The position numbers and the translations under genes are program-made. A DNA stretch of 55,318 nucleotides, counting the filler, from Sphacelaria rigidula (lineage: Eukaryota), in assembly GCA_964200075.2 (NCBI GenBank). It is 5 parts of 5 records of this genome, joined end to end, with 100 filler letters (N's around TTAATTAATTAA, not from the genome) between each part and the next. Parts side by side here need not be neighbours in the genome. Positions count along the whole stretch, not along the records: positions 11,086 to 22,069 come from CAXNAA020005576.1; 4 more parts are not named here. One strand, 5' to 3'. The notes under the pieces were generated by a model that worked only from the letters and a program-made list of their open reading frames with translations, had not been told where the DNA came from and did not search any database. Positions 6,343-44,335 of this stretch are shown here, one piece after another (within the stretch, counting starts at the first letter, position 1; each line of letters starts with the position of its first letter).

Positions 6343-6772
6343 ACACGGGATTTTACAAAGTGGGCGGTGGATCTTTTATTGGGGATGGAAACCCGGAGAA
6401 TTAGAATCTTCGTATCCGCACCACATCTTCGAATTATGCTTCCATTTCTTCATTTGCTGGTAGCTATTGATGACTACTACACGCTATTCAAATTTGTATT
6501 TCGATAATCGAAGTGTTGGGGTCTTACGTGAAAAACCAATTTTAGGGGATTTTAGCTGTCCGATCGGACGCCAGAATTGGTTCTTCACCTACGACCCCGA
6601 CATCTCGGTTATCGAAATCCAAATTTGTGTGGCGTGTAGCAGTTGTCAATAGCTGCCAGCTAGTGAAGAAATGGAAGCATACTTCGAAGATTCGGTGTGG
6701 ATACGAAGATTTAAACCCTCCGGGTGTTCATCCCCAATAAAAAATCCATCCTCAATCTGTAAAACCCCGTGT
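6343..6772. mobile_element. MITE with ~110-bp terminal inverted repeats
   Basis: ACACGGGATTTTAC...TTCCATTTCTTCA (6343-6452) is the imperfect reverse complement of 6664-6772; a further TIR copy lies at 10609-10717. Confidence 0.8.
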
Positions 6773-10985: not shown

Positions 10986-11085
10986 NNNNNNNNNNNNNNN
11001 NNNNNNNNNNNNNNNNNNNNNNNNNNNNNTTAATTAATTAANNNNNNNNNNNNNNNNNNNNNNNNNNNNNNNNNNNNNNNNNNNN
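10986..11085. other. Artificial contig linker
   Basis: N44-TTAATTAATTAA-N44 (stops in all six frames). Confidence 0.98.
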
Positions 11086-11219
11086 TATGGCAAGCATGAT
11101 CATGAGTACCCCCCCCCTCCCCCCCCCCCGGGTCTCCGTCTTGTATGACAAACTGGGGTGTTGCTGATGCGTTATTATTGTTCGTGTCTGTCTCCTCTCC
11201 GAAATTGAAAACAAAGCAG

Positions 11220-11362
11220 GCGGTGGTGACGATGACGATGACGGGGACGCTGACGGGGTGGCCGACTGGAACCTGCGGAAGTGTGCCGCGGCGGCGCTTG
11301 ACAATCTATCGGGCACGTTCGGCCCAGACCACGTGCTACCAGCGTTACTTCCGGCGTTGGAG
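11220..11362 (+). CDS. TNPO1: Transportin-1 (importin beta-2) internal exon, acidic loop/HEAT8
   Basis: aaagcag|...|gtatgc; GGDDDDDGDADGVADWNLRKCAAAALDNLSGTFGPDHVLPALLPALE matches the transportin motif DWNLRKCSAAALD. Confidence 0.93.
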
Positions 11363-11579
11363 GTATGCATCTCTTCATGTACCTGTTGAATGTGTGAAGC
11401 ATGGCATCCTTGTTTTGTTTCGTTTTTTTGTTGTTGGAGTTCATGTTGTGCGCGGTGTAGCTTACTTTTAGAGAAATCTCACGATCGCACGTCACAACCG
11501 CGGGTCTGCTGGATGAGAGCTCATGTGAAGGAGCATTAAATTATCGTAATTAAGCCTTCCCACGATGTCTTTGACGGAG

Positions 11580-11800
11580 GGGGCAGGGGTGGGTAGGGTG
11601 TGGTCATCATGCCATCGTCATGAGACCGTTGATCTCGCATCCCTACAACGCTGGGTTTTCGCCGGATCAGACACGCAATCACCAAGCGTGACGCGCCGTG
11701 ATGTGCTCGGCGAGTCGCATGAGGGTTGGACTGCACCATGCTAGGATTGTTCGATCCGAAGCGTACTGATTATCTTGCATATGGATGACAGCCTCGAATC
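11580..11800 (-). mobile_element. Longer copy of the poly-G-associated retroposon
   Basis: Family core plus an extension shared with 16430-16670 (TCCGAAGCGTACTGA.TATCTTGCATATGGATG). Confidence 0.7.
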
Positions 11801-11814
11801 ATTTGCTTCATTTT

Positions 11815-12347
11815 CTGGCATCGCCATCCTCGGAGACAGCCACGGGTTGCTCGCTGCCTCATGAGGGTGACCCTTTTGAATATGAATACAGGTTGTTCGT
11901 CTGAGGGTTGCTGCTCTGCTCCGGTAAATGCACACCATGCAGAGGTTTTTCGCGCCCTTCATTGGAAGAGATTGTTCATTGCAGCCGTTACGAGGTAGAC
12001 GCCAAAGCCGTAAGACAAGGTCGTCTTCTCGTTATTGAAGCTGACCATGTATTCCATCCGAGAAGCGTTGAATGCCTCGTTGACTTTCCAGAACAAAGCT
12101 GGCTCGAAAGCGCTGTCAAGTATATGTGGTGGTGAACGGGTCGAAACGTGTGACGCTCTTGATATCCTCCAAGACAAAAATGATGTTGTCTTCCTTCGAG
12201 TGCATCATCATGATCGCCATTTACCATCCTGTGAGGGCGAGGGTGAACAACTGATACCCTTTCCCCGAGGACTCTATCCCGACGCTCATTTTGCAGATCG
12301 GGTGCTGGCCGAAGTGCTTTGTTGGTTTCCCTACTCCTGAGGGCGCT
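11815..12347 (-). pseudogene. DOT1-like SAM-dependent methyltransferase fragment, left arm of foldback
   Basis: Frameshifted translation SGVGKPTKHFGQHPICKMSVGIE...FVLEDIKSVTRFDPFT..DSAFEPALFWKVNEAFNASRMEYMVSF aligns by eye with DOT1 motifs (GSGVGQ, CKxxxGVE, GDF, NNFAFGP). Confidence 0.72.
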
Positions 12348-12348
12348 G

Positions 12349-12935
12349 AGCGCCCTCAGGCATTGAGAAGCCAACCCAGCACTTCGCCCAGCACCCGAGT
12401 TGCAAGATGAGCGTCGGGATAGAGTTCTCGGAGAAAGGGTATCAACTGTTCCCGCTCGCCCTTCACAGGATGGTGAAAGGCGTTTTGATGATGCACTGAA
12501 AAAGACACATGATGTTCGCCTTCGGGGATGTCAAGAGCGTCACACACTTCGACCCTTTCACCATCATATATATATATATATTTGACAGCGCATTTAAGCC
12601 AGCTTTGCTTTCGGAAGTCAGCGAAGCATTCAAGTCCTCTCGAATGGAATACGTGGTCAGCTTCAAAGACGAGAGGACGACCTTGTCTTCCGGCTTTAGC
12701 GTCGACCTCGTCACAGGGGGGCTGCACTGGGAAATATTCCCCAATGACGAGCGGGGAGAACTCGTGCATGGTGTACATTTGCAGGAGAGGAGAAACCCTC
12801 CGACGAACATCTGGCGTACAGCCGCATCACGTCTTGAATTCTGCGCTCTATATCCTTACGAAAGGGGAAATGGTCATCCAAGAGCACGTCAACAGAAATA
12901 GTTGCAGATTTATGGCCGGCGGAGCATGGTGATGC
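12349..12935 (+). pseudogene. DOT1-like SAM-dependent methyltransferase fragment, right arm of foldback
   Basis: SGIEKPTQHFAQHPSCKMSVGIE...FAFGDVKSVTHFDPFT..YIFDSAFKPALLSEVSEAFKSSRMEYVVSF; contains a stop and an (AT)n expansion; inverted relative to the left arm. Confidence 0.72.
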
Positions 12936-13329
12936 AATACACAGTCTAGGTCGCTGGTCACTCATACAGTGCTCACGTCGAGGCGCAATCCTGCAGCTTC
13001 GAAGTTCTACCTTAGACTGGAAACGAAGCTGAATCCCGCAGCGGCAGCGTTTCACCCTGGGTTGACACACTGTCACGAAAAGTACGTTGACGAAGATGAG
13101 GCACGTTTAAGTAAGTACCAGGTTCGGCGGACTGGAGATGGCAGCTGACGCGGAATTGGAAGGCTGCACTCTACCCGCGAGACCAACAGACAAGGCAACC
13201 GTGACAGACGTGCCAAAGATAAATCGGAACAGAAAAATCTCGCCCATATAATCAGAAGGCGAAACAGACCAGGAAGGAGAGCACAGGAAACAAAAGGTCG
13301 CGTTATATATAGAGAAGGGTAACAGCTAG

Positions 13330-16240
13330 GTCGCGTACTGGGGAGCTCAAAGTGTTGACCTATGACGTCCGCATACTTGTCCCTCATTGGAAAGAACGGA
13401 GTTGGGCCATGCTGAGGTGATCCTGCAGAAACGTCAGGCCGTCGGATTTGACGTCATCTGGCTACAGGAAACGAGTAGACCAGGCAAGACGGTTAGTTTA
13501 CTGGCTACGAACCTCGTCGACGTACTCGTGAATGCCGCTGAAAAGGTGGTACCCCGTCTGACACGAAAGCCATGTATACCGGGGTGGTTTAAGAATGCTG
13601 CCATTCGAACGGAGTTCGAACGGGCCTGGATTGAGAGGGAGCGGGCGAGGTAAACGGTGCGACTGGGACAATCACGAGAAAAACCCGCATGGCACACTTT
13701 GCGAGCAGTGTGCAAAAAGGTTAGAGAGGTGATCCAAGTTGGGGTGGACAAATATATGGATGTGTATGCTGGAGAGTTGGAGGAGTGTACTCGAGCGGGG
13801 AACGTGAGAGGTTGGTACAGCCATCTCAACGGTAGGCGGAGACTGTCTGGACGACCAATCGAGAGTAAGCATTACATTCGAGGTGAGGACGGCAACTTAT
13901 GGTGGGACGAAGGTTGGATCAATGGGAGATGGGAACGGTACTTCTCCACATTGCTGAACGCCATATAGGCAACTGTCGACCGAACCGTCATAGAGAAGAT
14001 TGCGTAACGACGGACAGCGCCGTCACAAGTAGACCTGCCATGCCCAAGTGAAACTGAATAGGCTCTGAGAGCTATATCGAACGGTAAAGCAACGGGTCCG
14101 GATGGTCTACCTACTGAAGTCCTGAAGCTTGGCTTGAACGGGGAGGCGTCGGGGATTCTGTACCGATTTCCACAGCATCGTCTCTGTGGTTTGGGAATCT
14201 GATGAGGTGCCGCAGGAATGGAAACATGTCGCAGTCAAAGGGCTGGACAAAGAAAAGATGGGGCCGAGTGTCGTCACTAGAGAGGCATTTCATTTGTGGC
14301 ACATGCTGCTAACATTCTCGTCAAAACCGTACCCAACAGGCTCGGTAATTTTTGTGAGGAAGCAGACGCCTTCTCGGACGAGCAGTGTGGATTTAGGCGC
14401 CACCGACCATCGACATGATGTTTGTAATACGCCGACTTTGGGAGTTGGGATGGGCTCGTGAGGCCCCACCAAACATGTGCTTTACCGATCTGCAGAAGGC
14501 CTACGATTCCGTGACCACACGCTCCTCTGGGAAGCGCTTGCTTGGTTCGGAGTCCCACCGTGAATGATCACGACCATCCGTTTGTGCCACGACGGCATGC
14601 CAGCTCGGGTACAGGTAAATGGTGGCAAACTACCAGTGTGGTACCACGTCTGCCAGGAACTCAGGCAAGGTTGCGTTTCGTCCCGCTGTTGTTCAACATC
14701 TTCGGAGCAGCCTTAATCGACGTGACTGTTGCGGCGGACCCAGTTGCTATCTCAGACATGGTCCTACTAGATGATGTGCCAAAAGGTGACGGTGGTGAAC
14801 CCCTGGAAGAGACGCCGCTGGAAAGGGTGCGACGCGCGGTGTGGGCAATGCTCTGTGCGGACGACGCCGGATTAGTCTCGAGGACCTTAAAAGGCGTTGC
14901 TCGAATGATGGCTGTGATAGTGGTGAATTGCCAGGAATCCGGCCTGATGGTCACCGAGAGCAAGGAAGAGTCCATGCGCCGTGGGTCAGTACCCAGTCAC
15001 CCGCAGGATACCATGCATATCAAAGCTGCCGATCAACGGTATAAGCAGACGGGGAAGTTTGTCTACCATGGTGGTGCTATCAACGCGGATGCGAAAATAT
15101 TCATCGAAAGTATAGGCCCCAACTATATGATCGACCCAACGCCCAGCTATCCTCGAACGTCCGGCTGCTTGGAGCGGAGGTGGTGACAACTCTGTTGTAT
15201 GGATGTGCCACACGGACGTTGCGTGACGTTGCGTTCTGAGAACGTCGACAGTTTGCGGACTGCCCATTACAGCAAGTGGTTGGATTCCGCAGGAAAAATC
15301 GCAATGAGTACAAGACTCTTTCGTATAGTGCGGTGCTCGAGATGACCGACTGTAAATGTATCGAGACGACTGTCCGCAAACGTCACCTCTAGTTCGCGGG
15401 AGCCCTTGTTCGGAAGAAGGAAACACGCCTTCCTAAACGCATCATGAATGGACGGTTATCCGCACGAGGGACTAAGTAGGCCGGCCGCCCCCCCCCAAGC
15501 AATGGGGGGAAAACCTCCAGGAGAACCTGCGTGCATTAGGGGGCTGTTCCGTAAAAGGAGCGCGACGGAAATGGTCCGTGTACGGTGCAGAGACTAACGA
15601 TGCATGAGATTGGGTCACTGCGGCGAAGAACATGGGCAAATGGGATTGGCTTCAAAAAAAGAGCGGAGGAGTTTGAGGACACGTGGCGACGCGCAGAGGC
15701 TGCAGCGTCGAGGGTCGCCAATCGAAGAATCTTTTCTGCTCATCTCCGTTGTTGATTGTGTCCTTGGTGGGTGGCACTGCGGTGCTCCCTGGTGGGTGTC
15801 TGTATCTACTCTGCCGCCCTGAATTCGTAGGGCTTCACCACTGTGGTCTCCCTCCCTGTTCTCCATTTTCCCCATTTTTCTCTATATATGTATTTTTTCC
15901 TGCCGGTGTGTGGCAAAGCAGTGTGGTACCTCGCTTCATTGTTTTTGTCCGTGGCTGAAAGGGCCCATAATTTATCATAGAGCGTTTGTAGTGACCGAGC
16001 TGCAATCTTTTTCCCCCACGGCCTTTCGTTTTCTACGACTAGGTATGACTGTGGTTTTGCGTAAGACCTTGTACGCCGAAACCATGTGGCAAAGACCCGT
16101 CATTTCTTTGCTTCGCTGTTGTGTTTTTTTCAGCGAGGGTGTCGGTTTTGTTTTGTTTTGGGTATGTCTGTCATGCAACCACGGCTGGATCCCCGGGGGG
16201 TCTGGTAAAGTGCGACATTCAACTGATCAATCAATCAAAG
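13330..16240 (+). mobile_element. Degenerate RTE-like LINE (family B) in the transportin intron
   Basis: AP-endonuclease start (DVIWLQETSRPG), RT motifs GKATGPDGLP, DLQKAYDSV, LRQGC/PLLFNIF, LCADD; 3' UTR ends in (TCAA)n at ~16226-16238. Confidence 0.85.
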
Positions 16241-16429: not shown

Positions 16430-16670
16430 GGGATGGGAGCGGGTGCTCGTCAGCTTGCATGCAGTTGTCATATGACCATTGGCCTCGCATCCCTACAAAG
16501 CCCCGACGGGGCACACCGAGTTTTCTCAGGACCATGCTCGCAATCAATCACTGAGCGCGGAGTGCTGTAATGTGTTCGGCGAGTCGTACCAAGGGTGAGC
16601 TGCATTCTGTTCAGATTGTTGAGTCCGAAGCGTACTGAATATCTTGCATATGGATGGCAGCCTCCAATGA
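16430..16670 (-). mobile_element. Longer copy of the poly-G-associated retroposon
   Basis: Homologous to 11580-11800; abuts a G-rich tract. Confidence 0.7.
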
Positions 16671-16682
16671 GTCGCTTCTATT

Positions 16683-16951
16683 CTGGACGTCAGTCTCGCA
16701 ACACAGGAGCTTTTTTTTTTTTTTTCTACCCCACCTTCCTTCTGCGGCGCTTGCCTTTATTTTTCATCGCGAAAGGTGTTCAGCAATCCCTTTCCCTCGT
16801 CGACCGTTCAGTCGAATTTTGTGTACCCACGATACAGTCGCTCTCCACTGCTGGGCATGAGAAAAAATCTCAATTCGCTCTGAGATTCAAACCCACGACC
16901 CAACCGTCAGAGGGTTTCGAGGTTACCAACTGAGCCACCGGGGCGACCGGT
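16683..16951 (-). mobile_element. tRNA-derived SINE
   Basis: Head GCCCCGGTGGCTCAGTTGG (A box)...GGTTTGAATCTC (B box), followed by a body shared with three other copies (ATGCCCARCAGTGGAGAG...ACGGTCGACGAGGG). Confidence 0.8.
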
Positions 16952-17824
16952 CTGTCGGTGACCACGCTTATACCAATACAAGGCCTGCAATGGCTTTTAC
17001 TAGTTTTGGAGAGTGCCGATTATGTGAACATGGATGGTGAGCGATCAAGGACTCCGTACTAGAAGCCAACAGTATTTCTTTGGTTTGAGGCAGCGGATGT
17101 CGGCAGTGCACGCGTTGAAGTGGTGACATGCGCGAAACACGCTGCTGCGCGGCACGGTCGATGTCAAGCACGGGAGCCACCTGTATTTGTGTGCTGCGCT
17201 GCACTGCACCGTGCTATGCCATGGCCGCGCCGTGCCATGATTGACGTACACTTGTGCCCTTACGTAATATGTTTTTGTTTCTACATCCACTTGTAACCCA
17301 ACTCCTTTCTCGGGACGAGTCCGTGGTCAGAAGGAAATGAAGCATTTCCCCCCCGGTACACGCGTTACGTTCTGGCGTCGCAGATTGGATCATGACTAGC
17401 ACTCCCGCACCTCGTCGACTATTGTGTAGGAAACTCCGACTAATTTCACGTTTTTTTTCTCACGTTCTCACTTTTTCCACGACAGAAATCAGATACTTGA
17501 AAAAAAAAAATGCCAAACCAGACGCATCCGGTGAGGAATGAACCCGCGTTTTCTCGCCCAAATGGTGTAAATTGTGTCGCTAGACCATGGCTGTGGGGCG
17601 ATAACTGTATACGATAAGACAAAATACGACATACGATACGATACAATACAATACTATGTTAACTTTATGCACGCCGCCCAAAACGACGTGAGACATACTG
17701 CACGTACCGATTATAAGGAGATACCAGCCGATGAAAACCATAATTATGCACTTGCAATTGATCATCGGTTACTGTACCCGCTCCCACTGAATGTGTTGTC
17801 GCATGAAAACTGTCCTACGCGCAG

Positions 17825-18015
17825 GAACGTTTGGGCAGCCCGGATGTCTGGCAGCGCGAGAGCGCAATGCTGGCATTGGGCGCGGCCTCTGAGGGGTGCA
17901 TTGAGGGGCTCGGCCCGCATCTGCCGGCCTTGTTTACGTTTCTGAATCAGCAGCAGGCGGCAGACACGCCGCAGCTGAGGAGTATCTCTTGCTGGGTCAT
18001 GGGAAGGTTTATGAG
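17825..18015 (+). CDS. TNPO1: Transportin-1 internal exon
   Basis: gcgcag|...|gtaatt; ERLGSPDVWQRESAMLALGAASEGC...LRSISCWVMGRFM; phase 0 start fits the previous exon. Confidence 0.93.
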
Positions 18016-18124
18016 GTAATTTTTTTCCTTCCGCAACTTGTTGCTCCTATGGTCGCCACTATTTTCGTGTGTAATGTCATCACGTCTCATCATCTTGGTT
18101 GTGATGAGGGTATGGGAGAGTGGC

Positions 18125-22069: not shown

Positions 22070-22169
22070 NNNNNNNNNNNNNNNNNNNNNNNNNNNNNNN
22101 NNNNNNNNNNNNNTTAATTAATTAANNNNNNNNNNNNNNNNNNNNNNNNNNNNNNNNNNNNNNNNNNNN
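22070..22169. other. Artificial contig linker
   Basis: N44-TTAATTAATTAA-N44. Confidence 0.98.
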
Positions 22170-30729: not shown

Positions 30730-31450
30730 CAGGCTGGTTCACGGAAAATCCCCCAAAAACACTCATCGGCGAAACTTCACGCCGTTTCAAGGAGTTAGAC
30801 CCTGAAATTTTGCACAGGTGTCTTATGGGTCATTACACAACTTTGCAAGGACGAGTTATTTTTGACTTTTTGACTTTTTCACCGTTTTCCGGGGTCCCAG
30901 TTTTGTCGGAAAAACTTCGATCCAGTCGGACCCCCGTGAAACGGTAAAAAATAAAAATAAAAACTCGTTCTTGCAAAGTTGCGTAATGACCCATAGAACA
31001 CCTGTGCAATATTTTAGGGTCTAACTCCTTAAAACGGCGTTAAGTTTTTCGCGTTTGTGCGATGAACCTTGCCGTGCCACGGTGAAACGGCAAACAACTA
31101 GATTTTGGTATGAAAATGGCGTTTCAGGGTCTTTTTCGACGTGAACATGAAAATTCAAGCACCAGTTAATCGATTTTGGCAACGAAACTTTGTGAGGTTC
31201 TTCCTTGGGTGTGCGGCGGCAGAGCGTTCGCGGAAAAAATGAAAAAAATACTTTCGTGCCGGTTTTCCGGGGTCCCAGAACGGAAGACTTCGAAAAAACG
31301 ACTTGGATTCTATCACCCCCCCGAAAAACGGTGAAAAAATCAAGAATTAGAAAAACGTCGTTGTTCGAAACTTGCGAAATCATTCATAGCACATTTGTGC
31401 AAAGTTTCAGGGTCTAACTCCTAATAAATGCGTGAAGATTTGCGCGTTTG
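30730..31450. mobile_element. Tc1/mariner-like non-autonomous element with internal inverted and direct repeats (right end not defined)
   Basis: Starts TA|CAGG; 30770-30895 is inverted relative to 30931-31050, with a third copy at ~31315-31445. Confidence 0.5.
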
Positions 31451-33152: not shown

Positions 33153-33252
33153 NNNNNNNNNNNNNNNNNNNNNNNNNNNNNNNNNNNNNNNNNNNNTTAA
33201 TTAATTAANNNNNNNNNNNNNNNNNNNNNNNNNNNNNNNNNNNNNNNNNNNN
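33153..33252. other. Artificial contig linker
   Basis: N44-TTAATTAATTAA-N44. Confidence 0.98.
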
Positions 33253-44235: not shown

Positions 44236-44335
44236 NNNNNNNNNNNNNNNNNNNNNNNNNNNNNNNNNNNNNNNNNNNNTTAATTAATTAANNNNNNNNN
44301 NNNNNNNNNNNNNNNNNNNNNNNNNNNNNNNNNNN
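44236..44335. other. Artificial contig linker
   Basis: N44-TTAATTAATTAA-N44. Confidence 0.98.

What the first reader, a model, noticed from the sequence alone, without database searches (positions are those of the whole stretch)
11815..12935. Intronic ~1.1-kb foldback built from two decayed DOT1-like (H3K79 methyltransferase) paralogues: candidate hairpin-RNA locus
Seen: a perfect palindrome CCTGAGGGCGCT-G-AGCGCCCTCAGG (12336-12360) with imperfect inverted arms running ~460-550 bp each way, inside the 6.5-kb transportin-1 intron. In the + strand pre-mRNA, 12265-12296 can pair with 12400-12431 without interruption if G:U is allowed. Both arms translate outward from the axis into a class-I methyltransferase that starts inside SAM motif I (SGVGKP / SGIEKP) and continues CKMSVGIE, (E/G)D(I/V), FDPFT, DSAFxP. 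Established: these align with DOT1 motifs (DLGSGVGQ, CKHHYGVE, GDF, NNFAFGP); in Ectocarpus H3K79 methylation marks repeat-rich or repressed chromatin, and its miRNAs are often intronic. Inference: transcription of a housekeeping intron would yield long dsRNA able to target DOT1-family or DOT1-carrying TE transcripts, i.e. a possible small-RNA control of a chromatin writer, or a proto-miRNA born by inverted duplication.
Basis: partly seen in the sequence, partly recalled or inferred. Interest (0 to 1): 0.85.

Follow-up and report, generated by a model that had tools for sequence, protein, structure and literature searches.

The report
Palindromic DOT1-like pseudogene in transportin intron
A 0.9-kb DNA palindrome inside an intron of an alga's transportin-1 gene is made of two mirror-image, broken copies of part of a DOT1-type methyltransferase gene; it is most likely a decaying relic, not a proven regulator.

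Summary
A perfect 12+1+12 palindrome (12336-12360) is the centre of an inverted repeat. Its arms run 12347->11894 and 12349->12810, and 374 of 451 ungapped columns are identical (83%). The folded RNA reaches -635.9 kcal/mol, z = -42 against shuffles. The repeat lies in a 6.46-kb GT..AG intron of a transportin-1 gene.

Both arms read outward as the C-terminal half of a methyltransferase. Pfam does not recognise the arms directly. However, 99 library proteins match at E<=1e-3, and 24 of the 25 best carry Pfam DOT1. The family profile hits yeast Dot1 and human DOT1L.

Contigs from two studies bridge the axis at single-copy depth, so this is neither an assembly chimera nor a multi-copy transposon.

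The arms are each other's closest relatives and are cut at the same base. That fits one inverted duplication of one truncated fragment, not two paralogues. Both arms are broken.

The regulatory hairpin-RNA idea stays untested, because no small-RNA data were reachable. What I could test leans against it:
- no sequence at least 90% alike elsewhere in the reads;
- nearest protein only 37-40% identical;
- no G:U excess on the transcribed strand (24 vs 20).

Most likely this is a passively transcribed relic.

The parts
11894..12347 (-). Left arm. An inverted copy of the DOT1-like fragment, read outward on the minus strand. It is broken by at least one stop and two frame changes.
   Evidence: The alignment to the right arm ends at 11894. 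tblastn of P0001 gives three pieces in three frames: 12346-12122, 12126-11974 and 11972-11871. ORFs 12221-12355 and 12116-12220 share a frame and are split by a stop; 11959-12204 is in another frame.
12348..12348 (.). Symmetry axis: a single unpaired G between the 12-nt perfect half-sites 12336-12347 and 12349-12360.
12349..12810 (+). Right arm. The DOT1-like fragment in the same direction as the host gene. It is open except for TGA 12497-12499, which lies in a short out-of-frame patch. It contains an (AT)n run at about 12565-12582 that the left arm lacks.
   Evidence: P0001 matches DOT1-domain proteins over residues 3-122, i.e. 12356-12715.
12811..12901 (+). Unpaired continuation of the right-arm reading frame to its stop codon. 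It is single-copy like the arms and has no counterpart on the left.
   Evidence: The frame 12500-12901 is open. Depth here is 11-28, the same as the arms. Arm homology ends at 12810.
11219..11363 (+). Upstream transportin-1 exon. The donor GT lies at 11363/11364 (one G is ambiguous).
   Evidence: A 3239-nt contig of run X9 (labelled RNA as a guess) lies only on 11219-11363, at its own positions 1727-1871. Sequence.
17825..18016 (+). Downstream transportin-1 exon, after the acceptor AG at 17823-17824.
   Evidence: Sequence. phmmer against the PDB hits 9 Transportin-1 / karyopherin beta2 sequences at E about 3e-9.
11604..11855 (.). Unrelated, extremely abundant dispersed repeat that abuts the left arm.
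   Evidence: Summed contig depth is 4e4 to 1e6 here against 11-28 on the arms. There is a 70% copy at 16458-16686.

Best explanation
This is a single-copy, near-palindromic relic. A DOT1-like methyltransferase coding fragment was copied once in inverted orientation onto itself. The fragment runs from inside SAM motif I to the natural stop and has no intron over about 550 nt. A likely route is fold-back repair of a break, or a replication template switch, at the point that is now the axis.

Since then both copies have decayed by about 17% from each other, picking up stops and frameshifts, so neither can make an enzyme. The N-terminal half and the D-x-G of motif I are missing from both.

The structure sits 530 nt downstream of the 5' splice site of a 6.46-kb, repeat-rich intron of transportin-1. 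It is therefore transcribed passively, on the + strand, as part of the pre-mRNA, and removed with the intron. The intron RNA can fold into a stem of about 450 bp (83% Watson-Crick, 88% with G:U), which Dicer might cut as a by-product.

I infer no regulatory role.

Shown: the repeat, its DOT1-like origin, its single-copy state, its presence in two studies, the host intron, and the lesions.
Inferred: the one-step inverted duplication, passive transcription, and the absence of function.
For: - The repeat is real and far beyond chance (z = -42, 0 of 20 shuffles).
- DOT1-like origin: 99 proteins match at E<=1e-3, the best at 5.6e-12. 24 of the 25 best carry PF08123 above its cutoff. In the family-profile search of the PDB, 18 of 19 hits at E<=0.01 are Dot1/DOT1L. 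DOT1L chains make up most of the top fold hits.
- One fragment, copied once: both arms begin with the same 12 nt at the axis. The arms are sisters with SH-aLRT 100, on end branches of 0.42 and 0.29 below a shared stem of 4.55. The window holds no other copy and no N-terminal part.
- Single copy and not an artefact: a 1987-nt contig of X4 spans 11770-13600 and a 776-nt contig of X1 spans 12212-12924. Arm depth is 11-28, equal to the flanking exon region at 11.6 / 19.4.
- Decay: TGA at 12497-12499, and a left arm in three frames. 28 gap columns; 44 transitions and 33 transversions.
- No sign of selection on the RNA stem: 24 G:U pairs on + against 20 on -, p = 0.65.
- No candidate target: word-index searches found nothing. 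The best identity to any fetched family protein is 37-40.5%.
- DOT1 genes are greatly expanded in brown algae, so dead copies are expected (passages of PMC13076208).
- The host exon still appears in a spliced contig.
Against: - Differences between the arms are enriched at third codon positions of the DOT1 frame (21, 20 and 36 differences at positions 1, 2 and 3). NG86 dN/dS is 0.48 overall and 0.37 over the domain, the lowest of the six frames (the others range 0.57-1.08). Only about 4% of neutral simulations reach the observed synonymous count. Pure neutral decay after one duplication of a dead fragment does not predict this. The signal is weak (p about 0.04), but it leaves room for a period in which both copies were under coding constraint.
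- No small-RNA data could be examined, so production of siRNAs, and therefore a function, is not excluded.
- The depth test sees only sequence at least 90% alike. A paralogue at 70-90% identity, with short perfect matches, would be missed.
- I could not name the organism, so 'no annotated parent' may only mean that its proteome is not in the library.
Confidence: 0.62

Rival explanations
1. A functional hairpin-RNA (endo-siRNA or proto-miRNA) locus. The intron hairpin is diced, and its small RNAs silence a DOT1-family gene or a DOT1-carrying element in trans.
For: - A very stable hairpin sits on the transcribed strand of an expressed gene.
- It contains a 32-bp helix with G:U and six helices of 15 bp or more.
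- Intronic, same-strand small-RNA loci are the rule in Ectocarpus (passages of PMC4513859).
- The DOT1 family is expanded and repressive in brown algae.
Against: - No sequence at least 90% alike exists elsewhere in two read sets.
- The nearest proteins are 37-40% identical, too far for nucleotide complementarity.
- G:U pairs are not enriched on the + strand.
- The arms have drifted to 83% with 28 indel columns.
- Tarver et al. found no Ectocarpus miRNA derived from protein-coding genes.
- No small RNA was seen, because none could be looked at.
Confidence: 0.07
2. Two full DOT1-like genes once stood head to head as an inverted tandem pair and evolved for a time under constraint. A later hairpin-mediated central deletion removed both 5' halves symmetrically.
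For: dN/dS between the arms is 0.48 (0.37 over the domain), p about 0.04. The ancestral frame can be traced in both arms: where the right arm is out of frame, the left arm keeps the family's N-[VI]-x-F-x-x-x-D-I pattern.
Against: The two breakpoints would have to fall on exactly homologous bases. The perfect 12+1+12 centre looks like a primary fold-back junction. The selection signal is marginal. The right arm continues 91 nt further than the left.
Confidence: 0.15
3. A foldback-type transposable element, or a transposon that captured a gene fragment.
For: The intron is full of repeats (depth table). The window holds two other foldbacks, 6368-6748 and 30772-31047.
Against: Arm depth equals single-copy flanks in X1 and X4. 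No direct repeat is visible at the arm ends 11894 and 12810. There is no other copy in the window.
Confidence: 0.08
4. Assembly chimera: the palindrome was created by the assembler.
For: Palindromes are a known assembly artefact, and the window itself is a composite of pieces.
Against: Contigs built independently from runs of two studies cross the axis with 0 differences inside the arms (X1 record 6; X4 record 14 has its 3 listed differences at 13238, 13420 and 13499). X1 may be the source sample, but X4 comes from a different study.
Confidence: 0.02

Closest known systems
Ochrophyte / brown-algal DOT1-domain proteins, e.g. Ectocarpus siliculosus CBJ31200.1 (P0003, 456 aa)
   Same: Homologous over residues 3-122 of the arm peptide (E = 1.7e-11). 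Family-conserved residues are shared: of the 10 invariant columns, H11, P16, S21, G23, E25, L33, F70, Y76, F82 and F116 are all present in the right arm.
   Different: Identity is only 37-39%. The arms do not group with the brown-algal clade in the tree and sit on a stem of 4.55 changes per column. They lack everything N-terminal of motif I, and they are broken.
Canonical Dot1 / DOT1L H3K79 methyltransferases (PDB 1u2z, 7k6p, 1nw3)
   Same: The family profile matches them at E = 9e-7 (yeast) and about 5e-4 (human) across motif I and post-I. The predicted fold of the arm aligns to DOT1L at TM about 0.5.
   Different: Pfam DOT1 does not score the arm peptides themselves. The model confidence is modest, pLDDT 66.7. 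No activity on H3K79 can be claimed for this branch, still less for the fragment.
Hairpin-RNA loci and young plant MIRNA genes born by inverted duplication of a target gene (my recollection of the plant and Drosophila literature; no call)
   Same: Two inverted copies of a protein-coding fragment, with almost no spacer, on a transcribed strand.
   Different: No small RNAs were shown and no parent or target gene was found. The arms have diverged by 17% with indels. At 917 nt it is far longer than a miRNA precursor.
Ectocarpus intronic miRNA loci (Tarver et al. 2015, PMC4513859, passages read)
   Same: [quoted passage not shown]
   Different: By the authors' comparisons those loci show no similarity to protein-coding genes, and they are short hairpins. 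This one is gene-derived and about 0.9 kb. Rfam reports nothing in the window.

Membership tests
DOT1 (Pfam PF08123) methyltransferase | The protein itself scores above the Pfam gathering cutoff. | tested here: not met
   0 families for 6 arm peptides, even at E<=10.
DOT1 (Pfam PF08123) methyltransferase | Significant homology to proteins that carry the domain. | tested here: met
   99 hits at E<=1e-3. 24 of the 25 best carry PF08123 above cutoff; the 25th (P0005) has no family. In the profile search, 18 of 19 PDB hits are Dot1/DOT1L.
DOT1 (Pfam PF08123) methyltransferase | A complete SAM motif I (D-x-G-x-G) and the N-terminal part of the domain. | tested here: not met
   Both arms start at S-G of the family's D-I-G-S-G-L-G-K-P. 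No upstream part is found in the window.
DOT1 (Pfam PF08123) methyltransferase | An intact reading frame. | tested here: not met
   The right arm has TGA at 12497-12499. The left arm lies in three frames with a stop.
DOT1 (Pfam PF08123) methyltransferase | A class-I methyltransferase fold closest to DOT1L. | tested here: inconclusive
   AF2 pLDDT is 66.7. By Foldseek, DOT1L chains make up most of the top 30, but Trm11 ranks first; E is about 1e-3 and TM about 0.5.
Hairpin-RNA / endo-siRNA locus | A long inverted repeat able to form dsRNA. | tested here: met
Hairpin-RNA / endo-siRNA locus | Both arms transcribed in one RNA. | tested here: inconclusive
   The position inside an intron of an expressed, spliced gene implies it. 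No RNA contig covers the arms.
Hairpin-RNA / endo-siRNA locus | Dicer-sized small RNAs from the arms. | not testable with these tools
Hairpin-RNA / endo-siRNA locus | A complementary target transcript. | tested here: not met
   No extra depth at >=90% likeness on the arms. The nearest protein is 37-40% identical. The test is limited because no whole genome is held.
Foldback transposon / MITE | Multiple copies in the genome. | tested here: not met
   Arm depth is 11-28, the same as single-copy flanks, in X1 and X4.
Foldback transposon / MITE | A target-site duplication at the ends. | tested here: not met
   The bases outside 11894 and 12810 share no direct repeat (read by eye).

The most novel reading that the evidence does not exclude
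The foldback is a young, gene-derived small-RNA locus: an inverted duplicate of a DOT1-like gene, expressed for free from a housekeeping intron, whose siRNAs act on a diverged DOT1-family paralogue. That would be the first brown-algal case of the 'inverted duplication of the target' route to small-RNA genes, a route for which Tarver et al. found no evidence among 63 Ectocarpus miRNA families. It would also link RNA silencing to the expanded DOT1/H3K79 repression system of brown algae.
Probability: 0.05. Interest if true: 0.7.

Novelty: new member of a known kind. Interest (0 to 1): 0.27.

Why it matters
As a relic, it is a small footnote to the large DOT1 expansion in brown algae. It shows that the family also leaves dead, rearranged copies, and it gives a cleanly datable example of a fold-back inverted duplication that a genome has tolerated inside an essential gene's intron without disturbing splicing.

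It would matter more only if small RNAs from it exist and have a target. It would then connect RNA interference to the H3K79 repression pathway, which replaced Polycomb and DNA methylation in this lineage.

Tried and rejected
- Pfam on the arm peptides directly: nothing.
- phmmer of the arm against the PDB: only 1wzn, a generic SAM methyltransferase, at E = 0.17.
- Word-index protein searches with the arm, in the 'longer' and 'near' length classes: no hit at E<=1e-3.
- JGI metagenome contigs searched with the arm peptide: 429 pattern matches, none confirmed.
- IMG/VR viral contigs searched with the family alignment: 5 pattern matches, none confirmed. This gives no support for a viral origin.
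- Whole-genome search: no genome is held for this window.
With a transportin exon it gave only generic HEAT-repeat clusters and no useful taxon.
- Rfam at gathering thresholds: 0 matches in the whole window.
- No RNA holder was listed for the stretch. The contigs of X9, labelled RNA as a guess, cover the neighbouring exon and the abundant repeat but not the arms. This says nothing either way about expression or small RNAs.
- Pfam on ORF pieces at 13366-15186, which looked retroelement-like to me by eye: nothing significant.
- Naming the DOT1 subfamily (DOT1.1-1.5 of PMC13076208): the assignments are in extended data and supplements that I could not see.

Full report
**What is there.** The window reads CCTGAGGGCGCT-G-AGCGCCCTCAGG at 12336-12360. 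This perfect 12+1+12 palindrome is the centre of a much longer imperfect inverted repeat.
- The repeat finder gives collinear blocks of 114 nt (85%), 66 nt (82%), 139 nt (84%) and 73 nt (71%) around axis 12348.
- A global alignment of the two sides has 374 identical of 451 ungapped columns (83%), 28 gap columns, 44 transitions and 33 transversions.
- Identity per 50 columns runs 0.84, 0.86, 0.84, 0.78, 0.70, 0.76, 0.90, 0.68, 0.72 and then drops to about 0.45.
- The arms are therefore 12347->11894 and 12349->12810, about 455-462 bp each, not up to 550 bp.
- As RNA, 11894-12810 folds at -635.9 kcal/mol against -297.0 +/- 8.1 for 20 dinucleotide-preserving shuffles (z = -42, 0 of 20 as good).
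The longest pure Watson-Crick run is 19 bp.

**Where it is.** The window is not one stretch. It consists of five pieces joined by N44-TTAATTAATTAA-N44 spacers at 10986-11085, 22070-22169, 33153-33252 and 44236-44335. The finding and both flanking exons lie within piece 2, so this does not affect it.
- The exon 11219-11363 is the only part of the laid stretch covered by a 3239-nt contig of run X9, at the contig's positions 1727-1871. X9 is labelled RNA as a guess. That pattern is what a spliced transcript looks like.
- GT follows at 11363/11364. AG at 17823-17824 precedes the next exon.
- That next exon, 17825-18016, matches nine Transportin-1 / karyopherin-beta2 PDB sequences at E about 3e-9.
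- The foldback therefore lies in a 6.46-kb intron of a transportin-1 gene on the + strand. It starts 530 nt after the donor site.

**What the arms encode.**
- The right arm is open from 12350 to 12901 except for TGA at 12497-12499 (P0001 when read through).
- Pfam finds nothing in six arm peptides, even at E<=10. The PDB gives only a generic SAM methyltransferase at E = 0.17.
- A full HMMER pass over 1.84 billion representatives finds 99 proteins at E<=1e-3 and 3 at E<=1e-10. The best is 5.6e-12 at 37% identity, all over residues 3-122.
- Of the 25 best I scanned, 24 carry Pfam DOT1 (PF08123) above its cutoff and two also carry a PHD finger. The 25th, P0005, has no family.
- Named members include Ectocarpus siliculosus CBJ31200.1 ('DOT1 domain-containing protein'), Chrysoparadoxa australica, a Lotharella transcript and MMETSP transcripts.
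- A profile search adds Scytosiphon, Nannochloropsis, Odontella and others: 148 proteins at E<=1e-5.
- The family profile hits 19 PDB sequences at E<=0.01. Eighteen of them are Dot1/DOT1L, with yeast Dot1 at 9e-7 and human DOT1L at about 5e-4.
- An AlphaFold model of the right-arm peptide is of modest confidence (pLDDT 66.7). It finds DOT1L chains through most of the top ranks, although Trm11 is first (E about 1e-3, TM about 0.5).
The family consensus D-I-G-S-G-L-G-K-P shows that both arms begin at the S-G, inside SAM motif I.

**Is it real DNA, and how many copies are there?** Six public runs from three studies hold the stretch or a part of it.
- Laid on 11100-13600, a 1987-nt contig of X4 ('algae metagenome', a different study from X1) spans 11770-13600. 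Its three listed differences all lie outside the arms.
- A 776-nt contig of X1 spans 12212-12924 with none.
- Arm depth is 11-17 in X1 and 28.5 in X4, the same as the neighbouring exon region (11.6 and 19.4).
- The palindrome is therefore not an assembly chimera. At 90% likeness or more, the arm sequence occurs once in the genome.
- In contrast, 11604-11855 has summed depths of 4e4 to 1e6.

**One fragment or two paralogues?**
- The arms are 61% identical in protein by tblastn and 67% over 139 tree columns. No fetched family protein exceeds 40.5% (213 compared).
- I built a quick tree of 167 rows. These were blastp hits of P0001 at E<=1e-6 with at least 100 aligned residues; six near-identical rows, P0101, P0103, P0104, P0106, P0108 and P0110, were dropped from 173.
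- In that tree the arms are sisters (SH-aLRT 100). Their end branches are 0.42 and 0.29, on a stem of 4.55, and they are unplaced within the family and not with the brown-algal clade. The tool warns that long branches may be misplaced.
- Taken with the identical start of both arms at the axis, this says that one truncated fragment was duplicated in inverted orientation. It does not fit two paralogues that met.
- The right copy runs 91 nt further, to a stop codon, in single-copy sequence. It may therefore be the original.
- About 550 nt of coding sequence without an intron is long for an intron-rich genome and would fit a large exon or a retrocopy. I could not test this.

**State of the copies.** Both are dead.
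- The left arm lies in three frames with an internal stop.
- Near 12494-12512 the right arm has three single-base gaps relative to the left arm, and these create its TGA. At that point the left arm keeps the family pattern N-[VI]-x-F-x-x-x-D-I.
- The right arm also carries an (AT)n run that the left arm lacks.
- Neither arm has the N-terminal half of the protein, and tblastn finds none in the window.

**An unexplained detail.** Differences between the arms are not spread evenly over codon positions of the DOT1 frame: 21, 20 and 36 at positions 1, 2 and 3.
- NG86 dN/dS is 0.48 (0.37 over residues 1-122, 1.14 distally). This is the lowest of the six frames; the others range 0.57-1.08.
- Two neutral simulations reach the observed synonymous count in 4.1% and 3.9% of runs. 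One keeps the transition:transversion ratio and the other keeps base-specific rates.
- This is weak, but it is not what pure decay of a dead fragment predicts. It is the main reason I keep a 'once-paired genes with a symmetric central deletion' scenario alive.

**Does it work as a hairpin-RNA locus?** The structural precondition is met, and the position guarantees + strand transcription if the host gene is on. Beyond that I could test three things.
- Selection on the stem of the transcribed strand should turn transitions into G:U rather than A.C. The count is 24 G:U on + against 20 on - (p = 0.65).
- A trans target needs nucleotide complementarity. No extra sequence at least 90% alike exists in the reads. 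The word-index searches find no near relative. The nearest proteins are 37-40% identical.
- Known RNA families: none in the window.

**Literature context.**
- DOT1 genes are 'greatly expanded' in brown algae, with at least five subfamilies (passages of PMC13076208; passage of bioRxiv 10.1101/2024.02.19.579948).
- H3K79me2 marks repressed, transposon-containing regions in Ectocarpus (passages of PMC7784034).
- 75% of Ectocarpus miRNA loci are in genes, mostly in introns and on the host strand. The authors' comparisons found no evidence that miRNAs derive from protein-coding genes (passages of PMC4513859).
- I did not see the supplements or extended data of these papers. They may hold the DOT1 gene lists needed to assign a subfamily.

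**Verdict.** The most likely reading (about 0.6) is a single-copy palindromic pseudogene relic, created by one inverted duplication of a truncated DOT1-like coding fragment. It is carried passively in a repeat-rich transportin-1 intron, and any small RNAs from it would be a by-product. A regulatory hairpin-RNA role is possible but unsupported (about 0.05-0.07).

I could not name the organism.

Noticed in passing
window 10986-11085, 22070-22169, 33153-33252, 44236-44335: The window is a composite of five pieces of about 10,985 nt, joined by identical spacers (44 N, TTAATTAATTAA, 44 N). Adjacency of the pieces in the genome should not be assumed. The repeat finder reports the spacers as palindromes.
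   Followed up: partly
window 11604-11855 (also 16458-16686; fragment at about 11086-11130 in opposite orientation): An extremely abundant dispersed repeat directly left of the foldback. Summed contig depth is 4e4 to 1e6 against 11-28 for single-copy sequence, in all four runs laid, including the one guessed to be RNA. There is a 70% copy later in the same intron. Its type was not determined.
   Followed up: partly
window 6368-6541 / 6575-6748 and 30772-30863 / 30956-31047: Two further hairpin-forming inverted repeats: 174-nt arms at 84% with a 33-nt spacer, and 92-nt arms at 89% with a 92-nt spacer. Foldbacks are therefore not rare in this genome's non-coding DNA.
   Followed up: no
window 12948-13600 and ORF pieces 13366-15186 (+): The intron sequence right of the foldback is moderately to highly repeated (depth 150-4200). 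It holds open-frame pieces that looked retroelement-like to me by eye, but Pfam gives nothing significant.
   Followed up: partly
window 12356-12826 (-) and 12014-12340 (+): Long stop-free frames (156 and 108 aa) run antisense to the DOT1 frame in both arms, as mirror images of each other. They are probably a by-product of the GC-rich third positions (GC3 = 0.70) of the sense frame.
   Followed up: no
window 12565-12582: An (AT)n microsatellite lies inside the right arm and is absent from the left arm. It attracts unrelated contigs in the read laying (depth bump at 12528-12611).
   Followed up: no
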